64,000 bases of DNA from Bispira polyomma (lineage: Eukaryota). Positions 5,263 through 45,390 of this stretch are shown here, piece by piece. A model generated the notes under the pieces. The model was not told the origin of the DNA. It did not search any database and worked only from the letters and a program-made list of their open reading frames with translations. The translations under genes and the position numbers were made by a program. Location: positions 7,874,001 to 7,938,000 of the forward strand of contig OZ287756.1 in the NCBI GenBank assembly GCA_965649765.1, in the 5' to 3' direction. Within the stretch, counting starts at the first letter, position 1; every line of letters starts with the position of its first letter.

Positions 5263-7569
5263 ACGTGTTATTTGCTTGAATGTATTATGGCTTGTCCGCA
5301 TGGGTTCATTATTATTGGGCATATGGTAAGTATGAGGTCTGCGGACCTCTCTATTATATGTTGGGTATTTTAAATTATTGGAAAACTGTACATAGAAGTC
5401 AACTAACAGGTAAAAAATAAATATCTCCTCCTTTCCCACCTCACCCACAAGATAAATGTTCAGCCAATCAGCAACCGGGCGATGGCCAGGACGTGACCTA
5501 AGTGCATCACAGAGAAAAAGTTAAGCATTTTTTTCAATTGTTGTTGGACTTTCAGCAATTTCATTATTACAGCAGCCCTCGTTTTTTACAGTCAGCTGTT
5601 AATTTAATTTGCCTTAAGCATGAATCTCCTAAAGCTGAATTCCCACTGTGTATTGTAAATAATGCTTTGTCTATGCCTTGTGGCACTTATTTCAGACTTT
5701 GTAGCAGTAGTTTTTACCAAATAAATATATTTTCTTTGGCATGACTTAAAATATCACTAAAAATATTATACTTTAAATAATCTTTGTTATTTTTACATTA
5801 GCCAAAGAAATCAAATTTGGCCTTTGTCTGTTGTTTTATCACCAGGAATACATAGCCTATTACTGCACCAAATTGCATGAAATTTGGTAGATGGATGAAA
5901 AAAAGAGAATCCACAAAATCTATGGGTAAAAGGTATGCACTCAGTATCCTTAAATTTTCCTATTTGTAGGACAATTACAAGACTCTAGTCATTAACTATG
6001 ATTTTACATTCATTTATCATTAAATTTACTGTTTATGTAAATTTAATTTTTTAATTTAAAATCAATTTTTGTTAGTATTGCATTTTTATGAGTTGCATTT
6101 TTATGAGTTGAAGCCCAAAATATTCCTCCAAAGCTTTTAAAATATAGAATGACATTTTATGTCTCAAGGTGTTAGTCACCCTGAAATTCTTACACATTTT
6201 AAAGTTCACTATTATTAGAATTTAGTTGGTTTTATGTCACTTTACATCTTACATCATTTCACATCAGCCACATTCAATAGTGAAAGATAAAAAGGCATAC
6301 CCACAGAACCATTTAACCAATAGAGAAATAGTGTTTATATATACCTATCTAGGTGTCTATTCTTGTGTTTTTGGTACATGTTACAATTTCATGATAAGAA
6401 GGTCTGTCATACTTATATCCAGATAGAATCACAGATTCAGGCAAAGTACAACTTGGCTAATATTTTACAACAAGATTCGTGACTCATTTAATTGGATACC
6501 AGATCCATTACATCTTATTATTTTTCAGATGTTTATTTTCATGTGATTCTTATTTTACCAGCACAGCATATTTAAAAGGAAAAAAATAATAACAAGAATT
6601 ACATTAGTGTTTAAATTGCCATTTTAATTTTGTAAACATGTTTTGAGATATAAATACTAATTTAAATGCTTTTTAAAGCCATCGGTTTTGAATGTTTTTT
6701 TCAGGTATGTTTTGGTAAAATATTTCTGGGATTTGTGTATTCTAGAGTCAAAATAATGGACTTAAAGAAACTTTAATTTTGGGGAGCTATGTCAAGAAAA
6801 ACAAACGTGAGTATTATTGCTTTATGTGGTAGTGTTTGCTACCAAACAGATTAATATTATTTTGTAACTTTCAAATTTAAGTACACGACCTTTAAATCTA
6901 GTCGAATTCACCAACACTGAAATTCTATTATTGCAGTACACGAAATGAAAGAATAGAGGACTTATTAAAATGTCAATTATACAGTCAGCTTGCAATAGTA
7001 ATACATGGTAATTAATCATCATTATTATATAAATAAATATAGTATTTTAAATTTTTTTCCATACAATATTAATAAAATTATTGCTGTTGTTGCATTGTGA
7101 GCCCATGTGCTCAACACATAGAAAACTACATATGTATTATATGTAATGCCTTCTTCCTTGACCCATACCCCATCCCCTACAACATTTCATCTAAATTGGT
7201 AAAGTAGCCTTAGTCTACAACCAAGATCAAACTCAGCCATAGAAGAAGTCGGGATCAGTATACACACTGCTAACCACCAGGGAAGACAGGGAGGATGGAA
7301 AACCCATAAAGGCAGAAAGCAAGTATAACTACCGGTAGATACATAGAGCATGTACAGTTGGGCATGATAATTCGCCAGTTTTTGTTATGTACAGCAACAT
7401 TAAATAAACCTACACATGTAACAGCTTTGGGAGTTTTTATTTTAGTACTTTTATTACAAATGGTTGAAACTGTACAATTATACATGATTCTACTGGATAA
7501 GTCTTATAGATTAATATGGTTATTTCTTTACTTCAAGTCCCAAGCCCAATGTAGTGGTATTTATATGTT

Positions 7570-8165
7570 TTTGGATGGATTTTAGGTACAGCAGATGCTG
7601 CAACTGTAGTGGACTGCAAATATTGCCAAACTGCATCACTCTTCCACACCCCCATGTACCTTAATATTTTGCAACTGCAGGTTGTTATTGAACATGAAAG
7701 ACACGCCCGAATGTCTAAACGCATAAAAGCCATAGGCTTTGTGTGGTAGTTTCAGTGTGTCCAAAATGGAGGCCAAAGCAATGCGCACCTTGAACACTGC
7801 ACACTGTAACAGTACCAGTATTCTTTGGAATTACAAACAAAAGGTAGTTTTCAGCAGTTTTATATACCTTCAACAGGTTTTTAAAGCCAAGATAAGGATT
7901 ATTTAGTACAGGTATTTGAACAATCTGAACCTATGTGGAAGATTGCATTGCTATGTGCCATTTAAGATAGAGATGAGCACCTGGGTATGCAAAAATTACC
8001 CACTGTGAAATGCCTGATGGAATCAAATGAGAACATGGAGTTAAGCACCATGTTGGACAAACGGAAAAAAACGTAAAAAGCAACCAGGACGATGGCTCTA
8101 TATGTGATGCCATGTAATATATTATCGCAGGCATGTGAAATTTGAAACACATTATCTATACTAAA
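7570..8165 (-). pseudogene. Tyrosine recombinase of E1 (C-terminal part, frameshifted)
   Basis: AFYVFFRLSN (catalytic R), YPGAHLYLKW, YGFYAFRHSG (HxxR region) and GVWKSDAVWQY (catalytic Y). Confidence 0.9.
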
Positions 8166-8169
8166 ATGT

Positions 8170-10123
8170 GCTATTTCTTTTAGCTTATCTGGTGGGATGG
8201 TTATCATACCTGTTTCAATATTAATGTCCATGCACATTAAGAGTTATTTTGCTGGTGGATCCAGCTTGTCAAAGTACACAAATAACTCAAAGTGTGCAAT
8301 GCGTGTTGTGCGTCACATGACGTCTGTAACCTAATGACGTCATCTATGTAGTTCCACACACGATAACCACGTGAGGTCATAAGGTCACGCACAATGTCCG
8401 TGGTTCGCTGACATAAAGCGCTGCCAATTTTTAGGCCAAACGCAATGCTTAAATCAATGCAGGTTTGGTCCCTGTGTTTTATTCCCATGACGTCATAGTC
8501 TATTCGATCCAGACACAAGTTTCTAAAAGCTCTTCTTATAAAGGAGGACGTCATTACCAGCACTAGCAAATTCTTGCACTATTTCATCTACTGTGGGATA
8601 TTTTAAAGTATAGCCTTGCCTGTCATATAAGTCATCTGGTATGTTGGTATTTACTGAGTTACCATGGGGCCAACTCAAGTCAACAATGATTCTACGTGAG
8701 GCATTAGGTTTGGGCCTACAACATGGGAGATAGGTGTAAATTATTTATTATCACCTCAGTGCATGGCCCCATTATGGCTTTGTGTTTTAGGTCTTTTTCC
8801 AAGTATATGTCTATGTCCAATGGGAACATTTTTGCCGAACTATGATTGTCGACCTGATTGTTACAAGTAAAAGTACTTTTATCTATTCCTAAAGGAAAGC
8901 CAAATTCCAAGTATTGAACAAGAACAGTATCTGGGTGATGTTTCAATAATATCTTCCAATTTTGAACATTAAGATTTGAAGGAACTACTACCCTGGCATT
9001 TATGTAGTTAGGCATTCTAGTCTGAACTACTATCTGATGAGCTTCCTTAACCCATTGTTGTAATCAGTCAGCCTCAATTTGAGTTTTATGATAAAAAAAT
9101 GCCAAGTATCTAGGAATCAGTTGTGATATAAAGCCTATGCTTTTAGTACTATGATTTGGAGCATCAGATGATGCAAATTTACTATCATGGAAGCTCTGTA
9201 TGAGAACATTATGATCTATGTGATCTAAGGCCACTGCTGGAAGTGGTAATAATTTGTTGCTGCAAAAGTAAAGGAGCATGCGTACCCCTGCTGGCATGTG
9301 TTAAAACCTGGAAGAAAGTCCCCTTCATATGAATAGTATTGGGTTGTGTACAGTTTAGGTGCATCTGTCCTGAACTAATTTCTAAACCCATTATGCTATC
9401 ATCGCACGTGAGAGTGTAGTATATGTTAATGGAGGAATAGCTGTTCCATTGATCTACAACTGAGTGATCCACACCCACCCCAACATAGTCAGGTATTAAC
9501 ATGTGCTTTTTATCACTAGCTAAATGAAAATGTTGGATATGATCACTTAAATGTGTAATATCTTGGACGACCCTATTGCTTGTACGCGAGTCACTGTTAT
9601 CATGTTTATCATTGATTGTGTTAAAATCAAGCTGTTGTAAACAATTTTGAGTATTGTCATCAATACAACTGCTAAAAGATGTTAAAAATTTCTCAGGAAG
9701 GTGCTTAACTACATAGTTTGGAGTTTGGTAGCTGTTGTGCCCCTGAGAAACCTTATTTCCAGCCCCTTTTCTTAACTTGCGAACTTTATTAACATCCACA
9801 ATACTATCCATACTATCAATACTCTGTGCTGTCATGCTGTCTGAAAAGCCAATTTCCTTATAAGGGTAAAACTTGGTCTTTTCTTTACAGCCATACAACT
9901 GGTATTGGCACATGTAGACATTATGCCTGTGTACACCACACACATCATTATAACTAGTATCAATATACATTTTCTTGTAACACGCACTTTGATGCGCAAC
10001 ATGACATTTATTACTTCTATGGTATAAATTAAAATTTTCAATTCTATGTACAAACTGCTTTTTACATCAACTAAAATTGTTACCACATTTATATAGACAC
10101 TGGCTGTGTCTTTGTTTTCCTCG
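8170..10123 (-). pseudogene. pol of E1: long N-terminal extension plus reverse transcriptase (RNase H deleted)
   Basis: YLEFGFPL, HLSP, RIIVDLSW, DLSIAFGLKIGSALCQR, NYIDD and IPPDKLKEI, with several stops and frameshifts. Confidence 0.92.
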
Positions 10124-11228
10124 TTTTTTATCAGTTTTAAACATTCAAACTGCCTATAGGAATTGTACTTTCTAGTTAGCTTAAAACAGTAAGCGCAGGC
10201 ATGTTTTGCAAATACAGCCCCCTCTGCATGATCTGCCTGATGAGAACAAGTGTTGTTATTGTACTTAGTATATATCACAACCTCCTTTTTCCCAAAATGC
10301 CCAGTGTGACTGCCCTACACAGTATTACTACCATACTTGGCCCACTGTTGATTACCATTACTCTGAAAAGTATGTTGTGTACACCTCATTCTGATTTAGT
10401 CTACTGCCTCGAATTGTTCCCAATTACATTTTCCCCTTTCCATGTTTTGAAATAAGACAATGTGTGCCCGCTTAACGGTTGCCCAGTTGGTTTCTATGGC
10501 ATCCTGCATTAACAAGCGCAGGTACTCGAGCATATTATCTTTACTCAAATGATTACTTTCCTCTTGCATACAACCGGCATACCCAACTATAAACTGAAAG
10601 GGGCTCAGTTCTTCATACTGTGGATTTTTCCACTTAACCCAGAATAACAGTGCTCATGTGGGCAAGCCATTTCAGTGTTACGTTTACATACATTCATTCT
10701 AAACAACCCAGACTTAGCTTTCATACCTGAATCACTTTGCCTACTATTAAGTTTCAGTAATTGCTGTTGCACCTGTGTATGTAAGTAGTCGTTCTTATGC
10801 AAAAACTGTGCATGTGGTAATATACTGTTGTCGTCCACCACGTGTGACTGCTTACAGACTTTTCTGTCTCTTTTCACACGGCATCCATGAGAACAACTGT
10901 GAGCACGCTTAGGCGAACTGTGCGAAAGCACACCCAACGAGTTCTCAGTGGACTGACTGTCTAATTTTTGTTCTAGTCTTTTGTTATTATCCTCTAAAGC
11001 GAAAATTTTAGACAAAATCACAGCCAAAGCAGCCTCAGTAGTAGGTCCAGCTCCCGCGTCATGAGCCACTCCACCAACGGCACCTTCCAGAATGTCGTCC
11101 ACAGGCTGACTCTCCTCAAGGTCCACCAGAGGAGCTGACACGTTCATCCTGCAGTTCCTTACCACAGGACGTGGATGTCTTGACTGGTTTCCGATCAAAT
11201 CACAGCGTTTGCAGTAGAAGGCCGCCAT
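10120..11228 (-). pseudogene. gag-like ORF of E1
   Basis: N-terminal CxxC..H.RP..RNC, a coiled coil, KSGLFR..CPHEHC, MLEYLRLLMQDA and a C-terminal C..DH...HACAYC...C knuckle. Homologous to the gag ORFs of E2 and E3. Confidence 0.8.
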
Positions 11229-13999
11229 CTATAATTATAACAGACGTCCCCCCCAGCAGAACCTGGCTTATACTTCTGTCAAGTAGTTACAATGTTTTGC
11301 CCACATGTTTAAAATACCTCCACCAGACAGAATTATATATAATATTAACGAGCTTAAACCAATCCCTATAAGCCGTGCCCTGCTGAGAGCCAGAATATTT
11401 TAGATGCTTCTGCTAGCTGACCAAACTCCACACTGACCATGCTTGGTAGTTTGTACAGGTAGAGGAGACATCACCCAACACCCCACCAATCAGAAGCCAA
11501 CACATGCACAACCTGATACATCACCCCACATTCCTCCAATCAAATTTTGCCACCTATGCCCAGTAATTTTCCATGCACAAAATCATACATATAAATCCCA
11601 GCAACCTCTTACAACTGCCCCTGACCAAGGCCAAACCAACCAACCCACTAAAATAGGCAAAGCCACCCCAGTTCTTGGTTTTAACTGAAACGTGGTCATG
11701 ACCACAACCATTGTATAATCCTAGTTGTAAACACACAAACTAGCCAACCCAGACAAACCGGGCGAAAACATAACCTATTTTATGCACTTATGGTAAATAC
11801 AAATTTTCTTTACGTTTCATTGAAATAAAGACCCCAAAAATCCAATAATTGAACATACAAGATAGAGATGTCAAGTTACAATCATTCTGTTTAGTCAGAC
11901 TGAAATAAAGTATCTCATTGGTGAAAAATGTGTGTATATATAACCATGGGGACACAAAACCTTTTTCACACCACAAATATATATGCAAAAAAGTAACCTA
12001 ATGCTTGTTCCCCACACGTTTTGTGCCCCTGGCGATTTTACTACAATGTATACAGACATTATGGCTAATTTATTTAGCATTTACAATGTGAGATGGTGGA
12101 GTCTTTTAGTAAATGTCAGTATATATGGCAAAACCTTAATAGTGTGTAACTATAATAAAAACTTACATTAGCCAGAACTAGTAATTTATTAAAGGTCGGC
12201 ACTTGAACTCTTAAACTATGTCTGTATTTTTCTGTACAAGATATGTCTAATCTAAACTGTTTTAATTTTTTACTGAAAGCTCTATTCAAATGAATGGTAA
12301 TGTGTCGAGATTGTTACAATAATTCAATCAATCTAAATTTATGATAATTGAGTTTAACCCCGAATTTATGTTTGAGATATTCCACAAAGGCCTACGTTGT
12401 ATTGACCAGGGCCAGTATTTATCAGAGCTGATGTGGTATTTATGTTCAAACATGAGTTTAAGGTCCCAAGATGTTTGAGATTGTTGATAAATATGGCTAA
12501 ATAATGAAATCACCAAAAGCAAATAAATATAAATAAACTTACCTTAACAATTTATGAAAGTTTATTCGAAAAAAAAAGATCAAATTATTTTCTACTTAAA
12601 ATGTCCACTTTGCTTATGTCATGATTGAATAAGAATAGATCAGCAGACTTTCTTAGTTCAAAGGCTATTTAATGCAACTGACAAAAAAACAAACCTAGTG
12701 AGATATTGTCATGCCATGCACCATTAAAGAATGAATTTAAAAGCACAAAGAGTAAAGCATAGAACACAATTTATATCTGACAGCAACAATGATTATTTTG
12801 ATGTGTAATACATTTGTTGTTGTTTATCATGGTTGGAGTGTGGGAGAAATGGACTTCATTGACATTTATAGGACATGATAACACCATAACTGAGATTTAC
12901 ACAATACTCACAAATTCATTGTCTGGCTGTTTATATGTAGAACTACATACAGGCATTGTCAACACCATCATCCCCAAATGAGCTGTTGGAAAGAGAAATA
13001 TCTTGGGGAGAAAAGCTTTACATTTAAATGAGAGATACTGAGTGGGTGTATGGATAGGTTTGGTTTGCACTTTAAGCATATTACTTTTGTATTTAGCACA
13101 GCAGAATATCATACAATAAACAGTGCCCGAGACAGTAAATATGACTAAAATTAACCAGCAGATCACAATAAATATGCTTTTATTATATTCCACAAAAACA
13201 AAATTCAGAAATATTTTATGTTGTTTTTTGTAAACCTGGTGGTAATCAAATAAAGATACATAGGCAAAAACATGGCTTCCCTCGTGAAGGTAACATTTTT
13301 TGTGACAAATTATATCTTAAACTCCAAGGGATAAACAAGGGCAGTCACTATGATTTATTAAACATTTTATCAGGGTTATAGGGTGATATAGCAACACTTT
13401 TGTCTCCAAAAAGATATATTGCTGTATATTGTGCTCACAATACAAAGAAAAGGAAAGAGAGAGAGACAGATATTATCAACCATAACAAATAGAAGGGACA
13501 AATTGTGTGGTTTATCACAGCCCTTTTAAACAAGGAATACCATTAACCTTGCTTGAATAAAACAGCCATATATAGATTACTGAAACTAATTACCAGGGAA
13601 AATGTGTAACTGCCTAAATTGTATTTATCATCAACCAAAATGGACGAAACAGACCCATAAAATCTATATAACCCTTTGTAAGGTTGAAAGAAGTATTGGT
13701 GTTGTCCCAAAAAACCATTGTCTTGTCGGTGTTTTGCCTTAATCCACCATTACCACTGTCCCTGATTTGTATCCTAATCATAATTAATATACAAGTGGTT
13801 ATATTTATGTTTAGTTTCACTTTTGCCATTAGAATCATACATGTTGCAAATACACACCTTTGATGAAATGGTGAAATCGTAAATTGTTTACCGACTTTTG
13901 CCCCAGAGTTCATAAACTGATCCATGTATACATACCCTCAGTTAAGAACTGTGAACATGTTTGCTTACACAGTATTTTGTCTATTTCTAAAATGTATGC

Positions 14000-18911: not shown

Positions 18912-18912
18912 A

Positions 18913-21900
18913 ATGACTACCAGCCCATTTTAAACTATAATTCTCACTTAAAAGTAATATGCTTGAATATTAATGGATGGACAGATAACAATAAAGCATT
19001 ACGCCAGGCTATAATAAACTCTCAAGATCATGACATTTGTTGTCTCACAGAAACTCGTTTATCTCATTTGAAGGATAAATTATTCTCAGTTGTTAGTTAT
19101 AAAACTTATCTTAACAGCAGACAACTTGTAAATGTTAAAGCTCCTAAACCTTTGGGTGGTGTAGCTATCTTAGTTAGAAATCATGTTCTGGAGAACTTTT
19201 TTGTTTCCATCTTTGATAAATCGGTAGATGGCATCCTGGCTTTGGAAATAAAACACAAATACACCAAATTTAATGTTGTACTAGTAGCCTTTTACCTTTC
19301 CCCAGATAACAGTCCATATGGGAAAAATGTTGATTACTTTTTCAGTCATCTTATAAATCTATTATACCAGTCTTCATTTTGTGACTGTGTGTGTTTTTGT
19401 GGAGATCTCAATGCCAGGATCAGTGATAAATGTGACTTTATTCAAGGTATTGATGATATTTGCCAACGGGTTAACATTGATAATGTTAAAAACAGTCACG
19501 GAGATTCTTTCATTGAATTTCTTAAAGAAACTAGAACCAGTGTTTTAAATGGTAGATTTAGTAATGATAATTTTACTTATGTTAGTTCCAGAGGAAAGTC
19601 TGTAGTGGATTATGTTTTTGTACCTATTGAATGCCATAAATTTATTTCAGACTTTAGAGTTGTAGTAATGAGTGACAATGTAGATAAATGTAATGCAATG
19701 CATTTAATCACTGAAAACAGTCGTCTCCCTGATCATTCTCTACTGTCTTTTGATGTAGTTTGTACTTATGATGTCCTGGTTATTTACAAATATGGTCTTC
19801 ATAGAACTAGATCAACATCTAAATTACACAAGCTCATCTAAATCGTGTAAGAAAAAATTCTGTAATAATAAACCATACTGGACAGATGATCTAACCAAAC
19901 TTTGGAAAAAAATGAGAGATAAAGAAAAAGTATTTTTAAAATATAAAAGAAATGGAAAGAATAAACTTAGATTGGAATATAAGTGTGCCCAACAATCTTT
20001 TGATAAAGCACTCCGAAAAGCTGAACGTAATTATAAAAAAACAGCTAATGTGTAATATAGATAGCTATAACCAAAAGGATCCAAAAGCTTTCTGGCGACA
20101 TTTAAATAAATTAGGTCCTAGGAAGTCAAAAGGTATGCCAGAAAGTGTAAAAGACGGTAATAATGTTATCTCAGACACTAATAAGGTTATAGAAAAATGG
20201 CAATCAGACTTTAAATTGTTATACAATGACATTAAAACTGATACATTTGACCCAAAATTTTTAGAAAATACGATGAAACAAAGAGTGCTCTTTGAATCTA
20301 ACATGACTAATAATACGGAAATCTTAAATGAAGATATCCATTTTGATGAAGTTGAATCTGTCATAGTAAACCTGAAAAAAAACAAAGCCGCTGGACCTGA
20401 TGGAATCCAAAACGAGGCGTTAAAAAATATTAATATTCAAATTATGTGGAACATGATTAAAACATGTTCAAAAATGGACTCGTACCAAGTATCTGGTTAA
20501 AGGCTATTGTTAGACCAATCCCTAAAAGTGCTCTAAAAGATCCCCTAGTCCCATTAAATTATAGAGGAATCAGCTTACTATCAACTGTAGCCAAACTGTA
20601 TTCCGCAATTTTGCATAACCACATTAGCAACTATTGTGAACTGCTAGGTATTATTGTTAATGAACAGAATGGGTTCAGGAAAAAACTCTCATGTGAAGAC
20701 CATATATATAGCCTCACTTCGATAATAAGAAATAGATCATCGGAAGGAACTTCTACATATTGTTGCTTTGTTGACATGGAAAAATCATTCGACTGGGTAA
20801 ATAGGGACATGTTACTTTTTAAATTACTGTTGTATGGCATTGAAGGGCGTATATATGAAGCTGTGAAGTCTTTGTACAGTAAAACATTTAGTTGTGTATG
20901 GATAAATGATTTGTTTACAGGATGGTTTGAAACAAAATCTGTTGTATGACAGGGAGACAATTTGTCACCATTATTATTTGTTCTGTTTTTTAATGATCTA
21001 GCCATCAAAATATTGAACTTACAAATGGGTATTAATATAGATGGTAAAAATGTTTCTATTTTACTGTATGCAGATGATATGGTTTTATTATCTGATACTG
21101 AAGAACACCTGCAAATTATGTTAAATACACTTTATGATTGGTGTCAAAAATGGTGTTTATCAATAAACAAAGAAAAATCCAAAATTGTACATTTTCGAAA
21201 AAGTAGAAAAATCAGAAGTAATTTTCAGTTTGAATTAGGAAATAACAGTCTTGAAATAGTTTCAAGTTATAAATATCTAGGTGTCATATTGGACGAACAT
21301 TTAAACTTTCTTAACTGTATCAATACATTAGCCGACTTGTCAAGTAGGGCACTTGGAAGAATCATAGCAAAGGTGAAAAATAATAAAAATTTGGGTTTTA
21401 ACACCGTCACCAAACTGTACCAAAGTGGAGTAGAGCCAATAATGAATTATGGTGCTGGAATCTGGGGTAATACTAGAACTAAATCATTTGATATTGTCCA
21501 GAATAAAGCCATGAGATTTTATCTCGGTGTCCATAAGTATGCGCCTATTGCAGCCATACTTGGTGATATGGATTGGTTAAAGTCAAAATTTACAAAGTAT
21601 ATGTTTATGGAATCGCTTGGTTAGACTACCAAGTGAGAGGTTAACTAAGAAAATCTTTGAGTGGGGGACTATGTTAAATGTGAAAATAACTGGTGCTTGG
21701 ATATTTTAAGCCTTTTAACTGAAATTAATATGGAAAATTAATTTGTAAATCGTGAAGTTATTGATGTTAGTGAAGTGTTGAATAAATGCTTGGTAATTAA
21801 TCAAAATGAATGGTCTGAAAATATGATTTCAAAACCAAAATTACGACTCTATAAAATGTTTAAATATGAATTTAAAACAGAAAATTATGTCAAAACATAT

Positions 21901-22272
21901 TTGCATAAACACGAAAGATCGATGATTGCACAGTTTAGAGCAGGGATATTACCCCTCCCTGTTGAAACTGGTAGATATTGTAACATAAAAGACAGTGTTA
22001 CTCAAAAAATGCGAAAATTGAATGTTAGTGAACGTATATGTGAAATGTGTAATCTAAAAGGAATTGAAGATGAAAGGCATTTTTTATTAAAATGTCCTCG
22101 TTATGATTTACACAGAAAAGATCTTCTTAATAAATATGAACTTGTGTATACCGGTATTCAAAATATAAATGAAATTGATCAATTTAACTTGATAATGCAA
22201 AACTCGAATAAAAATCTGGCAACTTTTTTGATAAAGGCATGGGAATGTAGAAAAAGTCTTCTGTTTAAATAA
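18913..22272 (+). pseudogene. LINE ORF2: AP endonuclease, RT and C-terminal CCHC finger, with multiple frameshifts and stops
   Basis: NINGW, LTET, GGVAIL, GDLNAR, SVVDY and PDH (APE); NYRGISLL, QNGFR, DMEKSFD, V*QGDNLSPLLF, YADD and YKYLGV (RT); ETGRY..CEMC...EDERHFLLKC. Confidence 0.95.
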
Positions 22273-24218
22273 TAAATTTGAAACCTTAGAAATTGTATTT
22301 TGTGCAAAATTATGTATTCACACATTGAATTATTGTGCTAAAACTGTAATAATGGTAAAATAGCATAAAATTAATGTAATATATTTGAAATATTAGTAAT
22401 TGTATTTGTGCCAAATTATGTATTTACACACATTGAATTATTGTGCTTGAACTGCTAAAACTGTATTCATGGTAAAATAGTATTGAATCAATGTCATGTT
22501 CGTCTTTATAATCCTTTGAAATAATTTACATGCTAAACCTGTTTTTTGTGTATTCATTAAATTGTCACTAATAAGCCCATAGGGGCTGGGAACTACTATT
22601 CTGTTGATGTTATTGTTATTAAACGAATAAACTAAACTAACTTTACACATCTTTACACATCAGATTGTACATATTGTATGCTGTACATACCAAGATTTTT
22701 ACACAGCTTTAATCAATGACATTGACATATTTTTATTATCAAGTACTTGTGTCTTTCAATAGCTGTGTCACTACCCTTTTAAAAGTAAGTTCTTAAGGTT
22801 TAGCTAGGAGAAAATGTCAATTATTCAGATTTTCTAAAAACTTTATTGCAAGTCATTGTCACTATGGACCACGTGTTGGAGATTGAGACCAATTTAAATT
22901 AATTCGTTAGGAAAATTTACACTGATGCACAGAACTTTGATCCACAAGTAACCCCAGGATATTTTGTATTTCAAACACTAGCCTTGAATAGGCTCAAATA
23001 ATTGCCACTGACAAAGGCAATTATGTCATCTCTATCAATTAAAAACACTTTTTTAATTTGTATACATTTCCTTAATTTGGTCACACAATTTTATTGTGAG
23101 AAGCAAACAAAACAAATAACTAAGACAAAGTTGAAATTTAGAGTTCAAGACAATAGTTAAATATTAAGGATATATGAAGTAAATGCAGGTTTAAAACAAC
23201 AACATTTCAATACTTTAGTTTAAGGAGCCCCTAAAGTAAGTAATTGGGAATATTTAATAGAGCTTGTTTCCAAAACAAAATGTATTGTTCATTGAAGATA
23301 GTAGCTCGTTCCTTATGTAGGACCCAATGACTATCATTTGTAAGTGATCATCTGAATTACTATCTATCTGCCTGGACCGGCAAACTTCATACTGGGTCCA
23401 ATCCCTGTCCTTCAGGGTCCACGTGTTACCCACAATGCACAACAACACAGACACATCAGCATCAACTTTATATCAATGTTTTACTTCTATAGTGCCCCCA
23501 TGGATGGCCAGGAAATAATGCACGTGATCAGAGTCTAGTCATAGGTAGCAGAAGAATGCTCAGGTCGAAAAAAGAAATTTTAATACAGACGTGTTTTTTA
23601 GTGTTTTTTTAGAAGCCTGTAATTGCTGTCTCAGTATGAAGACTTACAGGAAGACTATTCCTTTCAGCTGATGTGCAAATTGATGTTATTGTTAACCTAG
23701 TTTTTTTGGTTAAGAAGTCAGAGGTGGAGAGATTATTTCCTCTGGGAGGACATTTAATTGAATTTTATGCAGAACTCAATTGGTAGCCCATGCATATATT
23801 GAAACAAAAAGATTCTGCATGAACGCATGGCATTAAATTCTTTACATATTTATAACAAAAGACATGTACGTTAACCTTGTCGACTTAACTCCGACTTCTT
23901 TAGTTTTTTTAACAGAACATTTTGTAGGCACACAAAAAAGGCAGACAACAGATTGGCTTACCATTATGCAGCAACATAAAGATGACAGTTTTTTCTAAAG
24001 CACGGTGCTGTCTGATTAGAATTTAGTGTAGAGATAAGTGCATTTAAACATATTGTCACAGTGAAATTTTTACAACTGAATTATTTAATCTCCCTATTTA
24101 TCACTGTCTCTCCTATTTTTGTTTCTAAGGACAGTTTAACCTTTCATCTGTTTGATGGGGTGACACCTCGGCGACACCACGCTCAGTTCTGGTACCAGAC
24201 TAACAGGGCTCAATTAGA

Positions 24219-24276
24219 CCGCGAAAGGTCATAGGGTAACTATAAAAGGCTTTGTCGCCCAACCAGCGCCATCATT
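24219..24276 (+). promoter_or_regulatory. Putative Pol II core promoter of E2
   Basis: CGCGAAA (E2F-like, 24220), TATAAAAGG (24241) and an Inr-like TCATT (24272) ~33 nt downstream, ~100 nt before the gag ATG. Confidence 0.5.
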
Positions 24277-24375
24277 AAATTTTAGAATTGTAACAGAGAA
24301 GAGTGTTGTAGAAGTTTGGGATTTTTTATTTTAACCTATATTTTAAATTGTTACATATATATATATGTTGTGATC

Positions 24376-25373
24376 ATGCCTCGCGGTAGACCTGTGAAAG
24401 TGTATGACTGTCATGTGTGTGGCATTACACATGAGAGAACAGTTGGGAGAAATTGTAAACATGTACTGGATCAGGTGGCTGTTGGGAGCTTGAATGACGG
24501 TGTTGCCAGTGAGATGGGCTGGGCTGGTTCTGTGTAGCAAAATAATGTATCGCAGCAAATATTGCTACAACTGCAGACTATGCCGCAGAAATTGGAGAGT
24601 ATGGATCAGCGAGTTCAAATCACAGAGGCGGCACTGTGTTCACCCAGTGCCCAACAGTCACGTAAGCATGATTCTGATTCTAATGTTAATAATGAAACTC
24701 CTGCTACCACTACTGATTCTGTCTTGCCCTCCTTGAATTTTCTCAGATCTAACAATGAGCTACAACAGCAAGTAGACCAGCGTTTATTGCAATTACAGAA
24801 ATTAAACGAAATTACCAGTGGGGCAGGTAAATTAAAATCTCAGAGGGGGGGGGGAGGGAGTACTAAAAATGTTAGGCCTTCCTTTGATGACTTGTTGTTA
24901 GTCTAGTTTACTGCTGGTTTTATAAGGTGAATTCAAGAGCAGAAAGCTCCTGAAACGTGTGATGCTATGTTAGATTATCTAGCAAATTTGATAGATGACA
25001 TGCATGACTTCTCTTGGGAAGCAGCAAAAGCATGTCATGCCATAATACTCACAAATATGGAGTTAGATAGATTAACCTGGACCGATTTTGAAAAGATAGA
25101 CTGTATTAGGAGAGCTCATGCTCAGCGCCATATTGTGCCATCTGCAAAGGCCAACCAAAATTCAAAAAATAGTAGCAATGTGCAAAAAGTAAACACATGG
25201 GTGTTGTATGTAGGTTCTATCAAAAGGGTACATGCAAGTTTATTGCAAGTCATAGAACTGCTTGTAAGTTTTTCAAACACACTTATGAAAATTGTGAGGG
25301 TGCCCATCAGACCAAATTGTGTTCAAAGAAAACAGCTTCAAAAAACGTGGGTCTTACTGCTGAAGGGCAGTGA
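24376..25373 (+). pseudogene. gag-like ORF of E2
   Basis: MPRGRPVKVYDCHVCGITHERTVGRNC, LPSLNFLR, MLDYLANLIDDMHDFSWEAAKACHA...RRAHAQRH and HTYENCEGAHQTKLC...SKN, with internal stops. Confidence 0.85.
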
Positions 25374-27370
25374 ACAAAAGTAAAGAAAAGTTTAATAGAC
25401 GTGTTGTATATAGTTCAAGTTGTAAGGATCATCATTTATTAAATGGTGAAAGTGCACATAAATATATATGTTATAACAAATATGTAAATCCAAGCTGGTC
25501 TCACAAAGACGTGGTAAAGCAGGGTAAAACCTGTATGAAACAAAGTAAAAAAACCCCAAATGAGGGTCTTACTGGGAGTCAAGGACGCGGGGCAAGTAAA
25601 CTGAATCATTCTAGCAATATCAGTCGTGGAAACATTCACAAAATTGGTAACAAAGTAAACAAAGGTCATTTAATCCCACTTTACTCACAATGAGGGACAA
25701 GTTGGCTGCCAACACAAAGGTGAGATATGACATGTCAAGTTATTGTTTCAAAAGGGGTGAAATGTGTCACTAAGTGTAAACAATGTGTTGTCCCCAAAGT
25801 GGTCAATCAAGATAAATATGCTCTAGGTATAAATCAACCCTTCAACAAAAGAATGTGGTTGTACAATGCTAAACAATGTACTACCATAAATTATGGGACA
25901 TTCAAACAGTTTGAAAGGAGGTTATATTCCACTCACCGACTTAGGTGAATTAGTTGTTGACAATTCAGTTCATTGAGGAGACATGAATATATTCCAACTA
26001 CATAGATTTATTAGACAAGACGGTCGACCCAATTACCGTGGACTACAAATAGGTGTGGGAAACGTATTTAAAAAACTATTGGGATTGGGAACTCCCGTTT
26101 TTAATAAAATTCGGATTTCCCCTGGATTACAATAGAGAGCTAAGGCTGACTCAGACCCAATCAATCATACTTCTGCTAAACAGTATCCAACTCATGTAGA
26201 TCACTATCTTAGATGTGCATTTTTGGCTCCTTTGAAAAACCACCTATACCAAATCTCCACACTTCACCGTTTATGACCAGAGATAAATCTTCTTCTACCA
26301 ATCGTCGAGTCATCATTGACCTTAGTGGGCCTCTGCGTAAGTCAATCAATGCTGGGGTTTCTTCTAATTCTTATCTTGACAATGATTTTATATTGACATA
26401 TCCTTCTATAGACAATATTCACTGATATTCAAGGCTGATGTCAGCCGGGCTTTTCGCCAAGTGGCCATTGACCCTGTTGACCTTGATTTCCTGGGTCTGT
26501 TTTGGAAAGGGTATTATGTAGATGGGTCTTTAGTTTCAAGCATGGCTCGGCAATATTTCAGTCAGAGACTCTCAGATAGAATTCATTATGTCATGCATGC
26601 TGAAGGTCACACAGTAATTTATTATATAGATGACAGTTTATGCTGCTCTTTTTATAGTAAAATTTATGCAACATACAATTGTTTACAGTACAAAGTACTA
26701 TAATAGAAAAGAGAACTGAAATGTCTTCTTGGATCACTGTTGTATATTTCAAAGTGTGTGAAAAAATGCAAGGTTCTTCCTTAACAGAATGTTACAGCTA
26801 CTTAGAAGCAACAATCATTGCAAAAACTTAACACCTGCTTTCCAAACGACCTTAATTGGTTCAGAGTATTTTTAGATAAATTTAACGGTGTATTTTTCTT
26901 TTACCATGAACCTATTACACTGTTAGTGGAATTAGATGCATGTCTAACTAGCATGGGTGGGGTATATGTTAACCAGGTATATACCTTATGTATACCTACA
27001 AACGTACAAAATCAAAACATTGCTTCATTGGAGATGCTGAACATCCTAGTTGCTTTTAAACTGTGGGGTTCCTTGTGGCATGCTCAGAAGGTTGTTATTA
27101 AATGTGATAATCAAGCTGTCAGTGTCGTACCACGTGTCGTACCAGAGACGAGACTTTGGCATTATATGCTCGAAACATACATATGTTGGCCAGTGAATTT
27201 GATATAGAACTTAAAGTTATACACATTTTAGGTGAGAAGAACAGATCTGCAGACCTGCTTTCACGCTGGTTAGAAAATGGGCATTGTCATGCTAAATTAC
27301 AAGGAATTCTTAGTTATGTCCAGTAGTGTCATGTCAGTCATGACTAATTAGTGGTAAACCATGAAATATA
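25346..27370 (+). pseudogene. pol of E2 (RT + RNase H), degraded
   Basis: FGFPLDY, HTSPFMTR, RVIIDLS, YPSID, DVSRAFRQ and YIDD (RT); ELDAC, EMLNI, KCDN and ADLLSRW (RNase H). Confidence 0.92.
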
Positions 27371-27503
27371 GATACAATTTGCTTCCTGTAGCATTCTGCA
27401 TTGCAGGTAGCAACCCAGTTCAGAGGTTATTGTACAGCAACGCTTCCAAGAAATTGCATTCAGCCTTCTACAGATCTACTGAGAGAGCCTACACAGCCAT
27501 GCA
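27361..27503 (+). pseudogene. 5' part of the E2 tyrosine recombinase (upstream of the E3 insertion)
   Basis: ...GSNPVQRLLYSNASKKLHSAFYRSTERAYTAM, homologous to E3 GNSLSRRLLQDTNAGIATGFRPRTFQAY. Confidence 0.8.
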
Positions 27504-27911
27504 TCATCAGCCTCCCTCCCGGTAAGGACTGACTGGTTGTTATGACCCAGTTACCGCTAGCCATAGGGGGAATACAAGCAAACAAGTTTGGTACATTTTG
27601 GGTTTGTTTATTTACATACACACAAATCAAATGTTAAACACTACTAACCTTAGTACTTAAGGTAACCTTAACATATGTACTCGTTGAGGTGACATTAATC
27701 CTTAACTTTTGGTGACCTTAAGCTCAGCATTACCTTGCACTTTAAGTTTTTAAGGTTGCCTTAACTCCCTGCATGTTCTAGGTTAAGGTGACCTCAACCC
27801 TGGAGGCCCTCTACACTACTTTTGTTATACTAATTCCACTCTAATTACGCTACTGTATATTTGTATATAATGTATAATATCTCTTGCCAAACCCATAGTA
27901 TGACTTGTAGA

Positions 27912-28877
27912 TTATGTTGTAGCTAAGTGTGTGCGGAAGGCCGTTGCGACCAGTCCAGCTGTTTTGGGGGTCTTTACCAAATAACGCCAAATGGCGTCCG
28001 ACCTCCAACCACCATGAACCTTAATGTGCTGTAAGTCAACCTGGTGGTCAAAGGCCCAGGAGGCGGCGGACCGCCTGAGTGAATGAAACCCATATTCTGA
28101 AGGTGTAAGTTGAACCTGGGAAATGAGGTGCGAGAAGACTTTTCTCACTTGGAAAGCTGTTACTACTACATTTTTCCCCATGTGGGAGTATTGGAAGAGG
28201 GGGGTTTTGTTACACAGGGGTTGTGGGGGGGATAGATCCCTTAACAGGACACAATGGTGAACCGGGAAGCCTAGGTACTTGGACTATTTGAGCTTGTCCA
28301 GAGACCTGCATATTCTTGGCGCATTTTGTAATTATATGTGCCCCTGAGGCCCCAAATGAGATCCCTGGGTGTAGGGAGCCTTGAAGGGTGGAAATTGGCC
28401 ACCTTTGAAGGCACTAGGGTAGCTAACCTGTAAAACCCGAAAAACCCAAGTAAAATAATGGCTTTGTAAACCTTGTAACCAGGGAATTGTGTTACCAGGA
28501 CAATAATACGTGTAAGTTTTTGTATGGAGAGAACGCCTTTGATTCTGTACTTGAGTGGGGCATTATGAGCCACCGCCTTAATCATGAGGTAAATTTTCCT
28601 GTGGTGTAGTATGTGCATAGGGAATTCATACATTTGGAAAAATGTTTAAGGACAGCTAAGTATCCTTGCAAAGTCTGTGAGCGCATTCCTTGCTGCGCTA
28701 AGAATTCAATAAATAGCAAGACTGCTTGTAGGTCGTGTGAGACCTGTATGTTAAGGTGAGACAAAAAGGCTATATAAAGCCTAAACTTAGACTGATAGGC
28801 CTGAAAAGTTCTGGGCCTAAAACCTGTTGCAATTCCGGCATTAGTGTCCTGCAGCAATCGTCTGGAGAGACTGTTAC
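27912..28877 (-). pseudogene. Tyrosine recombinase of E3 (frameshifted)
   Basis: FRPRT..Y..KF, GFFGFYRLATL (R), FHSLRRS (HxxR), HGGWRS and IWRY (Y). Confidence 0.95.
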
Positions 28878-28894
28878 CTACAATAATTAAATAC

Positions 28895-31455
28895 TATAAT
28901 TAGGTATTAGCCACTGTATGCCAATATTATGCCATTTACAACTTTTTAGGTAGTGAACTTCAGCCTTACATGTGCTGTGGAAGTGTCCACCGGGACAAAA
29001 TATCTGCATAAGTATTATCTGTTCCACGTACGTGTTCAGCTGATATGTCTATGTTATATTGTGCTTGTAATAACCATAAGGTTCTGGCACAGGCATTGAG
29101 GAAAACATCCCTACCCTTAGATTTATTACATGAACATGAAGTACATGAACCACGGCCCTGTTATCACAATGCAAACACACACTTTTATTACTGCATTATT
29201 TTCCCCAAAGTCTGAAGGCTATCAAAATATTACACATCCCGAAGTGGACAATACCCAAAGTACTTTGATACTCCCGGGGGATATTAACACTATACACTTG
29301 GCCATTATAATAGGCCCCCAAACTCTGAAGTGAAGCGTCTAAAAATACTTGCTCCCTAGGGGAGTCTTTCTTATGAATGGCTGTGACCCCATTATATTTG
29401 TTTAGAAAGGCACAAAACCAATTAACATCTTGGTGAAAGGACTCATTTAAAGGAACTTTTGTGTGGGGGGAGTCCCCCTCAACACGCCCAATATTCTATT
29501 AATGAAAAGCCTAGCTGGTTTCATGCAGCGATTTATGTAAATCAATTTACCTAGCAATTGTTGTAACTCTCTACTTGTGGTCCTTGTTTTCTGTCTCCAT
29601 TCAGTACATAATTGTGTGACTTCCTTTAGTTTCTGGTCAGGTATTGTTAGAAGACCTGTAGCAGCATTTATATTTATACCTAGACATGTTACACTTTGTG
29701 CCGGGGGGTCGACCTTGTCATAATTTATAGGAAGCCCCAAGCCCTCAATTAGGTTTTTCAGAGAATTAAATCCGGGAGTAGCCTTTCCTGGAGGCGCAAC
29801 GTCAATAAAATCGTCCAAATACGCGCACGTCTAATGGTTCTGTTTTCGCATAAGGAAAGTGACGCAATCTAAGGTCATTTGACATGTGTTGGCACCAGAA
29901 GCCAGGCCAAAAGGGACGCTGACGTCAACGTAATAGTTGCCCTCCCAATTTATTCCCAACGCAGCATAGTCGAAAGGGTCACCCCTTAAGTTTCTATACG
30001 CCCATTTTAAGTCTACTTTATGTATTAAGGCTTGAGGGCCTATCAAGGCTATTCTATCTACAATGTCGTCAATAGTAGGATATGTCAATTTAAAGGGGAC
30101 ATTATCAAATACGTCTTTGGGTATACAATTATTTACACTATTACCTTTAGGCTATGAGAGGTCCACAATGATCCTCCTACTTACGTCTGGCTTAGGATGG
30201 GACATGAGGGGAGACACATGTAGCTTGGAAAAGGGGCTTTCCACTAAAGGACCTATCATTGCTTTTAACTGTATTTCAGTATTAAGGTACTTAGATACAT
30301 GCTGGGGATACATAGACGCAGACGCATGATTTTTCACCGTTTGGCTGTACTGAAACTGTTCATAGTCTAATGAAAGGGGAAATCCAAACTCCAAATATTC
30401 GCACATAACTTCAAAGTCATATCCTTTCAAGTAGGATCGCCATGCAGTGATATTTAATTGGGAGGGGACGGCTATTCTGGCTCCCCTATAGTTAGGACAT
30501 TGTTCTGCTTGAGTGTGGGTGTAAGCTTGCTTTACCCATTCTGTCATGTCAGTACTATTCAACTCTGAAGCCTTTATATTAGTAGTGTAATTAGCAGGGC
30601 AACTGGGCACAAAGCCCCTTAACCATTCTCCTAATTGGACTTCATTGTTAAATGTGACACCCCTACTTCCCACAGGGTACTTAAGCAAACTGGGGGGTTC
30701 CCCTCCCTAACTAATTGGCTAACATTGATGCCAAACTGGCCTTGAAGTATAGCTGAGCTAACATTGAGGGAGGATTGGCATGACTCGTCACTTATACTGC
30801 TGGAGCTTTCTGCCGACATATTATATGTACAATACTGGCTCTCACTACCAATGAAACTTTCTGTGTATACAACGCTCGCACTTATGTCTACAGAGTCCCG
30901 GCTCTGGTAGACAACCCCGTCGGTTTCTATTGTCCCACCTAGACTGTGTGGTGAACTATTGTCCATCCCACTGCTACACGTACTGTAAGTACTTGATGAA
31001 AAACTACCACTAGTGACGCCTATGTCACAACTAATACTATTTATGTTTATATTGTTATACACATTACAAACGTCAATATCAACATCTAACAAATTACCAT
31101 GTGTACTACATAGCCTGGAATCTCTGATACTACTGTCTATGTTTCCACTAAAAACAAACCCTTCAATACTACCATTACTAAAATTTTGTACATTTAAGTC
31201 CATGCTTTCTTTGGAAACTATTTTTATTCTGTCCTTACTATTCCTATCCCGTGGGTTCTCAGTATTTACCCGTGGTTCAATTCCTTCCATTAATGGGTGA
31301 CCCTGTGTTGATTCGTGTAGGTGACACTGACCTAAGTGCTGACTTTTCCAAAAACAACTAGAGGACACATGTTTTGTACCAAAATAATCATAACCTACTC
31401 CGGTTTGATAGCCCACAGGGGTCACCCAACAATCAAATGGAAGAACTTGACTCAC
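28895..31455 (-). pseudogene. pol of E3: Ser-rich N-terminal extension, RT and RNase H
   Basis: YLEFGFPL, HVSPLM, RIIVDLS, YPTIDD, DLKWAYR, VPFGLASG, YLDDF, TCLGI, LLGKL, HCDN and ADILSRW. Confidence 0.95.
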
Positions 31456-31459
31456 CGTG

Positions 31460-32364
31460 TCAAACTTTCTGATCTGCCTTGTCCTCAGTCATTGCTTGTT
31501 TACCTGACTCCTTCTGTTTCCTATTGCACTTAATTTCTGCATGCTCATAATTCTTGTGTACTACACGATAACAGTATCCGCAAGAAAATGCTGCTGCAGA
31601 CGTCCACCCTCATAATGGTCGTGCTGAAATTTACAGTTCTCTTTTGCAAATTTGCCACACACGTTAACCTTATCCGAGTTGTCCCTGTTACTGTGATAGT
31701 CCTTGTTGCTGTGATTGCCCTTACTCCCTGAGTAACCATGATTACCAACCTTGAGGGTTTGCTGGGTAAATCTCTGTTGAATCCTGTCTGTTTCCCCCGG
31801 GTCCTTCCAGGACACCATACCTCTCTCCATCTCCAACAGAATGGAGGCATGGGCGCGTTTTGCAGTGGCCCATGACAGGTCCACTGCGTCCTGCATCAAG
31901 TTGTACTGATATTTAAGCATGTTTTGCCTTACCGTTTCATCAGTCTCCATTAGCACACAACGAGAAAACCCCTGGACCCACTGGTATATGGACAGCTCCT
32001 CATAAGTGGGCATCTTTAACGCATCAGAGAGCATACAATGCTCGTGTGGCCACGTTACAGGAACCTTAACACGCTGGTCGCCCAGCCTATAACGTCCCGA
32101 CTTAAATTTAGGATCATAACTGGGATGTCGTCTCTTGACATGTCCTGGTAATTGCGTAGTCTCCTGTTCACCTCATCCTGTATGGCTGAGTCTGTCCGGA
32201 GAATGTCCATGGATGGCAGCCTGCCCTTGATCAGACGTGGATGGCAGCCCCAGTGTAGGAACCGGCTCGTCCTCAGAGGAGGATGACAGCACCCTTTCCA
32301 TAGCATTCTTCTTTCTGCACAACTCACTACTTCAAGTGTTATAACTTTTAGTTTTAGCAGGCAT
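31460..32364 (-). pseudogene. gag-like ORF of E3 (N-terminal zinc motif apparently deleted)
   Basis: MPAKTKSYN..., LPSMDILR, KSGRYR..WPHEHC, PTYEELSIYQWVQGF, LMQDAVDLSWATAKRAHA and CGKF...C...DH. Confidence 0.85.
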
Positions 32365-32638
32365 ATCCAACAATTCTGTTCACAACCAAAAACTTAAAAC
32401 ACCAGGTCATAAACCACACTAAAATATATATAAAGTATAATTTGGTAGTTAAAATTTAAAATCCCAAGTAACTTTTCATGTGTCCACTGCAAAAGTTTTT
32501 GAAGAATGAGGCTTATGCCCCAAATTGTTTACCAATTACAAATTTTTGGCGGGAAAGCCAGATGACACTAAATACTTGGTTAATGATTGTTATGTGACAC
32601 AGGGAGAGAGACTGAAAGCTGACGCTGCCATTTTCATA

Positions 32639-33586
32639 ATGCACGCGTTCAATTCAGTGTACGTGGCATACACTGCATTCTTGGATAGACCATTTGATCA
32701 GGTGACAGTATTTGACTTACTCTGCGTTCTAGAACTACTTCATTTTAACCTAGTCAAACCTGCTCAAATGGCCAACTACTTGTCAGCCATTAAAGCTAAA
32801 TCCATTGTTTTTAACATCCAAGCTCAGGCTTTCAGTGATCCGAAAATTGCTTATTATCAGAAGGCTGTGCAATTGATTGAACCGTTGGATGTAAAATTAA
32901 AGAAAATAATTGATATCCAAACTCTTTCACAAATTGTGTCCGTCTGTGATACCACTTACATGGTATTAGTGTTCAAAGCTGTTCATGTTCTCAGTTTCTT
33001 TTCCTTCCTACATCTATCAAACCTTGTCCCTTATTCTGTTAATCAGTATTATGCTTTAAAACATCAAGCAGGAGCAGACGTTATGTTCCATTCTGATAGA
33101 GCTGTGATATTGGTGAAATGATCCAAGACCTTGCAAACCAACCAGCAAATTAAACTGATTACAGTACTCAGGATAAAAGGATCAATTTTGTGCCCAGTCA
33201 AGGCACTTCAGGTCTTAATGGCCAATACTCCTCCTGGCCCTAACTCGGCCTTGTTCCAGTTTAAGGCAAACCATGTTTGGTTACCTCTTACTAATACAAA
33301 ACTACGATGTCATTTTAAAAATATACTTCATAGACTGCAGCTACACGACTCGGGACTTACTTTCCACGCTTTTCGTCATTCAGGTGCCACCTTTGCATTT
33401 AATCACAATGTCAACATTCAGAACATTCAAAACCATGGCATCTGGACTTCGGACTGCGTGTGGAGGTATGTCACAGATACAGTCGACGCTGGCCAACAAG
33501 TGGCTGATATGTTCAGGCAACATCTTTCCCCTTTGCTAACTAGACCACTACTCTTTGGGGTTTGGGTGATTACAGTTAAGTCATAG
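32639..33586 (+). pseudogene. 3' part of the E2 tyrosine recombinase
   Basis: ANYLSAIK, FFSFLHLSNL (catalytic R changed to H), K*SKT (stop at 33119), LCPVKAL, FHAFRHSG and HGIWTSDCVWRY. Confidence 0.95.
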
Positions 33587-36930: not shown

Positions 36931-37454
36931 AGGGTCCAAACTTGGCTAGGGTCCAAAATGACAGACACAAACAAAATGGAAAAAATGCCCTCTATAGGGA
37001 AATCTACATTCTACCCTCTTAGGTCTGGAAAAAACTTACACTCATTCATTCCTGTAAGTATCAAACCTGCCTTTTTTTCAAGTAAAACAAAATGCTAGTG
37101 GTTTCCACTTACATTTTCTGACATTCGGTAGAAATTTAAGTACCTTCCTTCAAACTCTTTTCCTTCAAACTCTTATTGTATATGGAGGTATATTACCAAA
37201 GATCATTGTAACCTCTAATCAAGTGGTTCAAACCTTCAACCTCCTCCTACAACCCTCTTCTGTTACTTCTCAGTTGGGCCTCGGCGTATATTATTATATA
37301 AAATTGTACATTGTTAGGGGACATATTACAAACTCTTAACTTGATGCTCATCCTAAACTAAATCCCCATTTAAATTAGGGCCCCCTTAAGCTAAAGTTAA
37401 ATTTACTTTAAAGTCAAGTATAACTTTCTAGTCTGTACATACTAATATATAAAA

Positions 37455-45274: not shown

Positions 45275-45390
45275 GATTAGAATCACTTGCTAATCATCAC
45301 TGGTCTCTCACTATTGTGGGTTCGAATCATGTCCCCTCCTTAATGTGGCAGGTATTTGCCGTCAGTTGGTGATTTTTTCACCACTAAATC
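45275..45390 (+). mobile_element. SINE fragment
   Basis: ATCACTGGTCTCTCAC...GGGTTCGAATC (B box). It sits at the position orthologous to 53450 and 58421. Confidence 0.55.

What the first reader, a model, noticed from the sequence alone, without database searches (positions are those of the whole stretch)
24827..27406. YR recombinase probably expressed as a spliced Gag-YR fusion, with a ~2.6-kb intron removing pol
Seen: at the homologous gag codon just before the KSG/KSQ motif, E2 has GCAG|GTAAAT (GT at 24827) and E1 has TCAG|GTATGA (- strand, 10726). Both are phase-1 donors. E3 has a damaged CCAG|TTATGA exactly where its gag frameshifts (~32119). Just before the YR conserved region, E2 has TTCTGCATTGCAG|GT (27406) and E3 has TTTAATTATTGTAG|GT (- strand, 28878). 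Both are phase-1 acceptors that continue in frame into YR (G-SNPVQRLL..., G-NSLSRRLL...). The E3 YR frame has a stop 6 codons upstream of the acceptor and no ATG before its conserved N-terminus. Inference: a subgenomic spliced mRNA fuses the zinc-motif/coiled-coil half of Gag to the recombinase, much as env is spliced in retroviruses. This could tether YR to particles or to target DNA. I do not know of this being described for YR retrotransposons, but cannot check. Caveat: E2 also has an in-frame ATG at 27361.
Basis: partly seen in the sequence, partly recalled or inferred. Interest (0 to 1): 0.78.

Follow-up and report, generated by a model that had tools for sequence, protein, structure and literature searches.

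The report
Spliced Gag-recombinase fusion in Ngaro retrotransposons
A common jumping gene in this animal genome keeps a matched pair of RNA-splicing signals that would cut out its reverse transcriptase and likely attach its recombinase, which mostly lacks a start codon, to the front half of its structural protein; this differs from the ribosome slip assumed in print and is not yet seen in RNA.

Summary
The splice signals are real and conserved; the spliced RNA itself was not seen. The window holds three decayed Ngaro-like tyrosine-recombinase (YR) retrotransposons, and E3 sits inside E2's YR gene. Across 80 relatives from three clades in this genome, a phase-1 GT donor in gag is kept in 69 of 75 located sites. 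A phase-1 YAG acceptor just after the pol stop is kept in 66 of 69. Of 35 conserved glycine columns in 15 families, only the donor and acceptor-junction glycines keep one codon (GGT). YR lies in frame -1, 0 or +1 to pol depending on family, with almost no slippery site. This argues against the pol-YR frameshift proposed in print. Joining the two sites gives an in-frame Gag(N)-YR protein of about 520 aa. Against: no junction read (no RNA run was listed), no spliced genomic copy, no database fusion protein, and an in-frame ATG upstream of the acceptor in 9 of 13 relatives of E2. The window copies are broken. This scan reported the same reading before on other DNA. My searches found no paper on it. 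Verdict: likely (0.85), a new variant of a known kind.

The parts
24153..27505 (+). E2, 5' part of a decayed Ngaro-like element (gag, pol, start of YR)
   Evidence: blastn against relatives L041-L044
24376..24826 (+). E2 predicted exon 1 coding part: Gag N-half (C-x2-C-x3-H-x2-P-x-G-x2-C motif, predicted coiled coil, conserved P-x-L-x-x-L-R helix); broken by a stop at 24535
24824..24832 (+). E2 phase-1 splice donor CAG|GTAAAT
24827..27406 (+). Predicted intron (2580 nt): Gag C-half and all of RT/RNase H
25340..25376 (+). A-AAA-AAC heptamer plus hairpin at the gag/pol overlap, predicted -1 frameshift signal
27361..27371 (+). In-frame ATG (27361) and pol stop TAG (27369-27371)
27389..27406 (+). 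E2 phase-1 splice acceptor (pyrimidine-rich run, CAG at 27404-27406; a second in-phase TAG at 27389-27391)
27407..27505 (+). E2 YR exon, first 33 codons, up to the E3 insertion
32657..33586 (+). E2 YR exon, remainder after the E3 insertion (one stop inside)
27506..32656 (-). E3, decayed Ngaro-like element nested in E2's YR gene
32114..32122 (-). E3 damaged donor CAG|TTATGA; relatives read GT here in 36 of 36
28878..28904 (-). E3 branch-point-like CCTAAT (from 28904) and acceptor TAG (28880-28878)
27912..28877 (-). E3 YR exon (frameshifted)
7212..11710 (-). E1, decayed element; donor CAG|GTATGA at 10726; acceptor lost by deletion

Best explanation
These are Ngaro-like YR retrotransposons that likely make their recombinase from a spliced subgenomic mRNA, which would join the first 140-195 codons of gag in frame to the YR gene. 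Shown in sequence: a conserved phase-1 donor, a conserved phase-1 acceptor 8-46 nt after the pol stop, an open joined frame (518-521 aa in four intact copies), and no conserved YR start codon. Inferred: the host spliceosome uses these sites; unspliced RNA gives Gag and, by recoding, Gag-Pol, and serves as the genome; spliced RNA gives Gag(N)-YR. Untested: the zinc-motif and coiled-coil half brings YR into the Gag particle or to the target site.
For: (1) Copy counts. Donor GT: 36 of 36, 14 of 19 and 19 of 20 located sites in the E3, E2 and E1 clades. Acceptor YAG: 36 of 38, 13 of 13 and 17 of 18. Of 80 loci, 5 lacked a located donor and 11 a located acceptor. (2) Codon control on 15 E3-clade families, whose YR is 59-79% identical to L033. 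Of 35 conserved Gly columns, only gag G194 (donor) and YR G1 (acceptor junction) are GGT in 14 of 14; the other 33 reach at most 0.8 for one base. The flanking residues vary (T/S/A/P/L before, M/T/I after), while -2A, +1G, +2T and +3A hold in 15 of 15. (3) The donor has at most 3 better U1 matches among 63-84 nearby GT sites in 10 of 10 elements. (4) CTRAY lies at -45..-15 in 13 of 14 E3-clade families. (5) YR frame relative to pol is -1 in 35, +1 in 21 and 0 in 15 of 71 scored copies (13 of 84 not scored). A slippery heptamer lies in the overlap in 1 of 71, a deletion copy. By contrast, the E2 clade's gag/pol overlap has AAAAAAC in 12 of 15 mapped relatives, with a hairpin in the 6 copies folded. 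(6) No upstream in-frame ATG in the E3 clade; the first Met falls anywhere from residue 8 to 190. The exon encodes a full Cre-like fold with a SAM-like domain at residues 17-82, so most internal starts would lose the core-binding domain. (7) Two full elements from other contigs have AAG|GTAATT and CAG|GTAATA at the same place and phase, and 13 of 13 examined outside loci have a phase-1 YAG before YR. (8) The 5 GT-to-AT donors in the E2 clade are 5 separate tip changes. (9) The donor lies between the Gag N-half helices and the predicted C-terminal helical domain at residues 241-322 (low-confidence model).
Against: No junction read was seen. No spliced genomic copy among 69 paired hits (shortest gap 1041 nt) or 20 unpaired loci checked. 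No fusion protein in four protein searches, though those hits look like single-ORF calls on DNA. 9 of 13 E2 relatives and 9 of 18 E1 relatives have an in-frame ATG upstream of the acceptor. The donor +1 G is lost to A in 5 of 20 E2-clade copies against 6 of 120 at other G columns (Fisher p=0.01, post hoc). CTRAY is absent in 9 of 9 E2-clade copies and in 11 of 13 outside loci. The acceptors are only moderately pyrimidine-rich and are not the best-scoring AG in most elements. Three other pol codons are equally invariant and unexplained. The outside acceptors were picked by eye. Families share ancestry, so the counts are not independent events.
Confidence: 0.85

Rival explanations
1. YR is made from its own start codon, by re-initiation after the pol stop or from a short internal transcript.
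For: In-frame ATG at 27361; an upstream in-frame ATG in 9 of 13 E2 relatives and 9 of 18 E1 relatives; the pol stop lies close by. AUG-independent re-initiation is reported for LINE-1 ORF2 (recalled, not checked).
Against: No upstream ATG in the E3 clade. The ATG at 27361 is cut off by a stop in L042-L044. ATG positions differ between subfamilies. This model does not explain the invariant donor or the YAG.
Confidence: 0.06
2. YR is made as a Pol-YR fusion by programmed frameshifting in the short overlap, as proposed by Poulter and Butler 2015 (quoted in PMC13003380).
For: A 4-10 nt overlap in frame -1 is the commonest layout in the E3 clade. One database protein has RT and YR in a single 1100-aa frame. 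Fungal Ngaro YR can be in frame with RT-RH (PMC3783388, passage).
Against: The frame is 0 or +1 in 36 of 71 copies, several intact families have no overlap, and a slippery heptamer is found in 1 of 71. The model gives no reason for the donor.
Confidence: 0.04
3. Both sites are used in splicing but not with each other; for example the donor yields a short Gag and the acceptor takes another upstream exon.
For: Pairing is inferred from phase only. Other AGs inside the intron score as well or better.
Against: The phase matches in all three clades, and no conserved phase-1 acceptor exists at the start of pol.
Confidence: 0.04
4. The motifs are by-products of protein constraint (Gly codons, the P-N-Y-x-I end of pol) and an AT-rich genome.
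For: The donor is a Gly codon and the branch-like motif overlaps pol's last codons.
Against: 33 other conserved Gly columns use mixed codons. The residues around both sites vary while the bases do not. The acceptor lies after the pol stop.
Confidence: 0.01

Closest known systems
Ngaro-like retrotransposons (order DIRS; PMC9210276, PMC8547959, PMC3783388)
   Same: gag, RT/RNase H and YR in that order on one strand; no room for a methyltransferase after RNase H; split direct repeats A1...B1-A2-B2 in relatives.
   Different: The passages I read give no splicing. The expression model in print is a pol-YR frameshift (Poulter and Butler 2015, seen only as quoted in PMC13003380).
Murine leukemia virus SD' RNA and P50/P60 (PMC10496198, passages)
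   Same: A donor inside gag is spliced to an acceptor late in pol, fusing the N-part of Gag to integrase sequence.
   Different: P50 carries only the last 116 aa of a DDE integrase and is an accessory protein, and SD' RNA is found as integrated copies. Here the whole recombinase would depend on the splice, and no spliced genomic copy was found.
Retroviral env and foamy virus pol spliced mRNAs; copia/EVADE spliced gag RNA (all recalled, not checked)
   Same: Unspliced genome RNA plus a spliced subgenomic RNA sets the protein ratios.
   Different: Env uses its own start or a very short leader; copia-type splicing removes pol to make Gag alone.

Membership tests
Ngaro-like YR retrotransposon | gag, RT/RNase H and YR in that order and orientation | tested here: met
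   Window frames; L033 has three open frames with RVT_1 and Phage_integrase/SAM hits
Ngaro-like YR retrotransposon | Tyrosine recombinase with R...H-x-x-R...H/W...Y catalytic residues | tested here: met
   R151, K189, H268, R271, H291 and Y302 invariant in 25 sequences; Cre is the best fold match, E 1e-7
Ngaro-like YR retrotransposon | Split direct repeats A1...B1-A2-B2 | tested here: met
   Both repeats seen in L009, L011, L019, L022, L024, L034, L035 (E3 clade) and L102, L103, L105 (E1 clade); not seen in 13 E2-clade loci or in the decayed window copies
Ngaro-like YR retrotransposon | No methyltransferase domain after RNase H | tested here: met
   pol ends shortly after the RNase H end motif and 8-46 nt before the YR acceptor; no MT hit in L033 pol
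Ngaro-like YR retrotransposon | RT/RH groups with named Ngaro elements in a tree | not tested
   No named reference sequences were available from the tools
DIRS1-like or PAT-like retrotransposon | Methyltransferase domain (both groups); inverted terminal repeats with ICR (DIRS1-like) | tested here: not met
   No MT, and the repeats are direct
Spliceosomal GT-AG intron | Conserved donor, acceptor and matching phase | tested here: met
Spliceosomal GT-AG intron | Removed from RNA | not testable with these tools
   No RNA holder was listed

The most novel reading that the evidence does not exclude
Animal Ngaro retrotransposons generally make their recombinase only as a spliced Gag(N)-YR fusion, so the annotated free-standing YR ORF is an exon, the published frameshift model is wrong for them, and the Gag N-half is the module that loads or aims the recombinase.
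Probability: 0.55. Interest if true: 0.78.

Novelty: new variant of a known kind. Interest (0 to 1): 0.62.

Why it matters
How YR retrotransposons express their integration enzyme has been a guess (frameshifting). A spliced fusion would redefine the true protein: about 520 aa with a zinc motif and coiled coil in front, not about 325 aa. It would tell biochemists which form to study and put transposition under host splicing control. It also offers a route for the report that ORF1 appears to set Ngaro target choice (PMC8547959, section 11). One junction search in RNA would test it.

Tried and rejected
RNA: no RNA holder listed. Three contig sets of unrecorded kind, from one study, were laid on L017 and on window 24100-33700. 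No donor-to-acceptor joint was among the 14 rows listed for L017 or the 15 rows shown for the window, where 91 more were not shown. This is no evidence on expression. Spliced genomic copies: none among 69 paired hits out of 150 x 150, none in 20 unpaired loci, and no YR frame over 456 aa among 150 matches; these lists hold only the top candidates. Fusion proteins: none. The idea of one donor also feeding pol was rejected for the E3 clade: there is no conserved phase-1 YAG between the gag stop and the first pol motif in the 33 rows printed. Gag had no Pfam hit in 5 of 5 proteins, no atlas hit and no clear fold match (model pLDDT 49). A trimer fold of the Gag N-half gave no verdict, score 0.26. 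Literature: seven searches and term look-ups in 11 papers on YR elements or transposons found no spliced Gag-YR. The Poulter and Butler 2015 review was not held, Goodwin and Poulter 2004 and Repbase notes were not seen, and no supplements were read, so an earlier mention is possible.

Full report
Verdict. They most likely produce a Gag(N)-YR fusion (0.85). I could not see the RNA, so splicing is inferred.

Anatomy. The window lies in a 1.04-Gb, 75-contig genome. It holds three decayed elements with gag, RT/RNase H and YR. E2 runs on + from about 24153. In relatives L041-L044 its YR continues directly from the match to 27505 into the match to 32657, and public contigs show the same joint, so E3 (minus, 27506-32656) is nested in E2's YR. 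E2's gag has a stop at 24535. E1 (minus, 7212-11710) lost its acceptor in a deletion. None of the three looks able to make the protein, so the test had to be made on relatives. I fetched 40 E3-like, 20 E2-like and 20 E1-like loci. The E3-like set was chosen for long YR frames from 150 matches; the other two sets were chosen from 16+40 and 41 matches. Relatives show split direct repeats and no methyltransferase, which are the Ngaro features given in PMC9210276 (passages) and PMC8547959 (section 11). No tree against named Ngaro elements was made.

Donor. It follows a conserved helix that ends the Gag N-half and precedes the K-S-G-R or K-S-Q motif by a few codons. GT is present in 36 of 36, 14 of 19 and 19 of 20 located sites. 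In 15 E3-clade families the bases -2A, +1G, +2T and +3A are invariant while the neighbouring residues vary. As a control with the same ancestry, 35 conserved Gly columns were read across gag, pol and YR. Only the donor Gly and the acceptor-junction Gly keep one codon. Of 163 four-fold columns, 6 are at least 93% fixed: these two, the Pro in the branch-like motif, and three unexplained pol codons. The five AT donors in the older E2 clade are separate tip changes. Their excess over other G columns (p=0.01, post hoc) is unexplained; host selection against a strong donor and a mutation hot spot are both possible.

Acceptor. A YAG in phase 1 lies 8-46 nt after the pol stop in copies with an intact pol end, and is kept in 36 of 38, 13 of 13 and 17 of 18 located sites. 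The exon's first residue varies (G, D, E, V). CTRAY lies upstream in 13 of 14 E3-clade families but in 0 of 9 E2-clade copies. By a crude score of my own the acceptor is good but rarely the best AG of the element. In metagenome loci, 13 of the 27 found were examined (those covering most of YR), and all 13 have a phase-1 YAG before it, picked by eye. The two with a homologous gag also have the donor. For L068-L070 no donor could be assigned.

Start codon. The exon encodes a complete Cre-like recombinase (pLDDT 83.5) whose SAM-like domain spans residues 17-82. In the E3 clade there is no upstream ATG, and the first Met falls at residue 8-190. In the E2 clade 9 of 13 relatives have an in-frame ATG, mostly 9-10 codons upstream. 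The ATG at 27361 itself is cut off by a stop in three of the closest relatives. Own-start translation therefore stays open there.

Frameshift model. PMC13003380 quotes Poulter and Butler 2015 that YR is probably reached by frameshifting in a short -1 overlap (passage; the review was not held). Here the frame is -1, +1 or 0 in 35, 21 and 15 of 71 scored copies, some families have no overlap, and a slippery heptamer occurs once. The gag/pol junction, in contrast, does show recoding-type signals: AAAAAAC plus a hairpin in the E2 clade, GTT before the stop with pol in +1 in the E3 clade, and in-frame TGA in three outside loci. These functions are predicted, not shown.

Model. Unspliced RNA would give Gag and Gag-Pol and act as the template. 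Spliced RNA would give a 518-521-aa Gag(N)-YR. The cut falls between the N-half and a predicted helical domain at residues 241-322 (low confidence). The role of the N-half is untested; sharing an assembly domain with Gag, or choosing targets, are the two obvious options. PMC8547959 reports that Ngaro copies lacking ORF1 sit at different sites. No spliced copy was found in the genome. This could mean that packaging signals lie in the intron, but it is also simply missing support.

Comparison and novelty. The nearest working analogy is MLV SD' RNA, which fuses the Gag N-part to the last 116 aa of integrase (PMC10496198, passages). Seven searches found no spliced Gag-YR in print. I saw only passages of PMC7192593, PMC9341512, PMC4157794, PMC4495291, PMC3783388, PMC9210276, PMC6681497, PMC3266345 and bioRxiv 2026.05.21.726589; passages plus one section each of PMC8547959 and PMC13003380; and no supplements. 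This scan had already noted the same reading twice in this genome and related readings in three notes from other genomes. Those notes are not independent evidence. Their claim that pol is also spliced did not hold for the E3 clade.

Noticed in passing
window 25340-25376 and E2-clade loci: AAAAAAC heptamer in 12 of 15 mapped relatives, followed by a CACTGC...GCAGTG-type hairpin: predicted -1 gag-pol frameshift signal.
   Followed up: partly
gag stop of E3 and L001-L039: Gag ends in GTT plus a stop, with pol in the +1 frame, across the E3 clade; a possible +1 shifty-stop signal.
   Followed up: partly
L061:1122, L064:1317, L069:2690: gag and pol are in one frame, separated by TGA (possible readthrough); L068 has them fused.
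   Followed up: no
RT region of the E3 clade, e.g. L033 pol residues 462 and 546-551: Fixed synonymous bases form small inverted repeats (GCC...GGC; GCCT...AGGC): candidate cis signals inside the predicted intron.
   Followed up: partly
L068:4309-4869, L069:5524-6153: A fourth ORF after YR, probably the SGNH-type ORF known from Ngaro elements (not scanned), also begins at a T-rich run and an AG.
   Followed up: partly
window 17970-22272: Decayed LINE with a coiled-coil ORF1, an endonuclease and RT.
   Followed up: no
window 37393-38008, 1315-1864, about 43000-60000: 28-nt and 74-nt satellites and repeats spaced about 5-6 kb apart.
   Followed up: no
L004, L005, L010, L019, L034, L040: Several young copies sit in or beside tandem repeats; L017 is a head-to-tail duplicate.
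   Followed up: no
E2-clade donors (L042, L043, L045, L050, L055): The +1 G changed to A five times independently, more often than at neighbouring G columns.
   Followed up: partly
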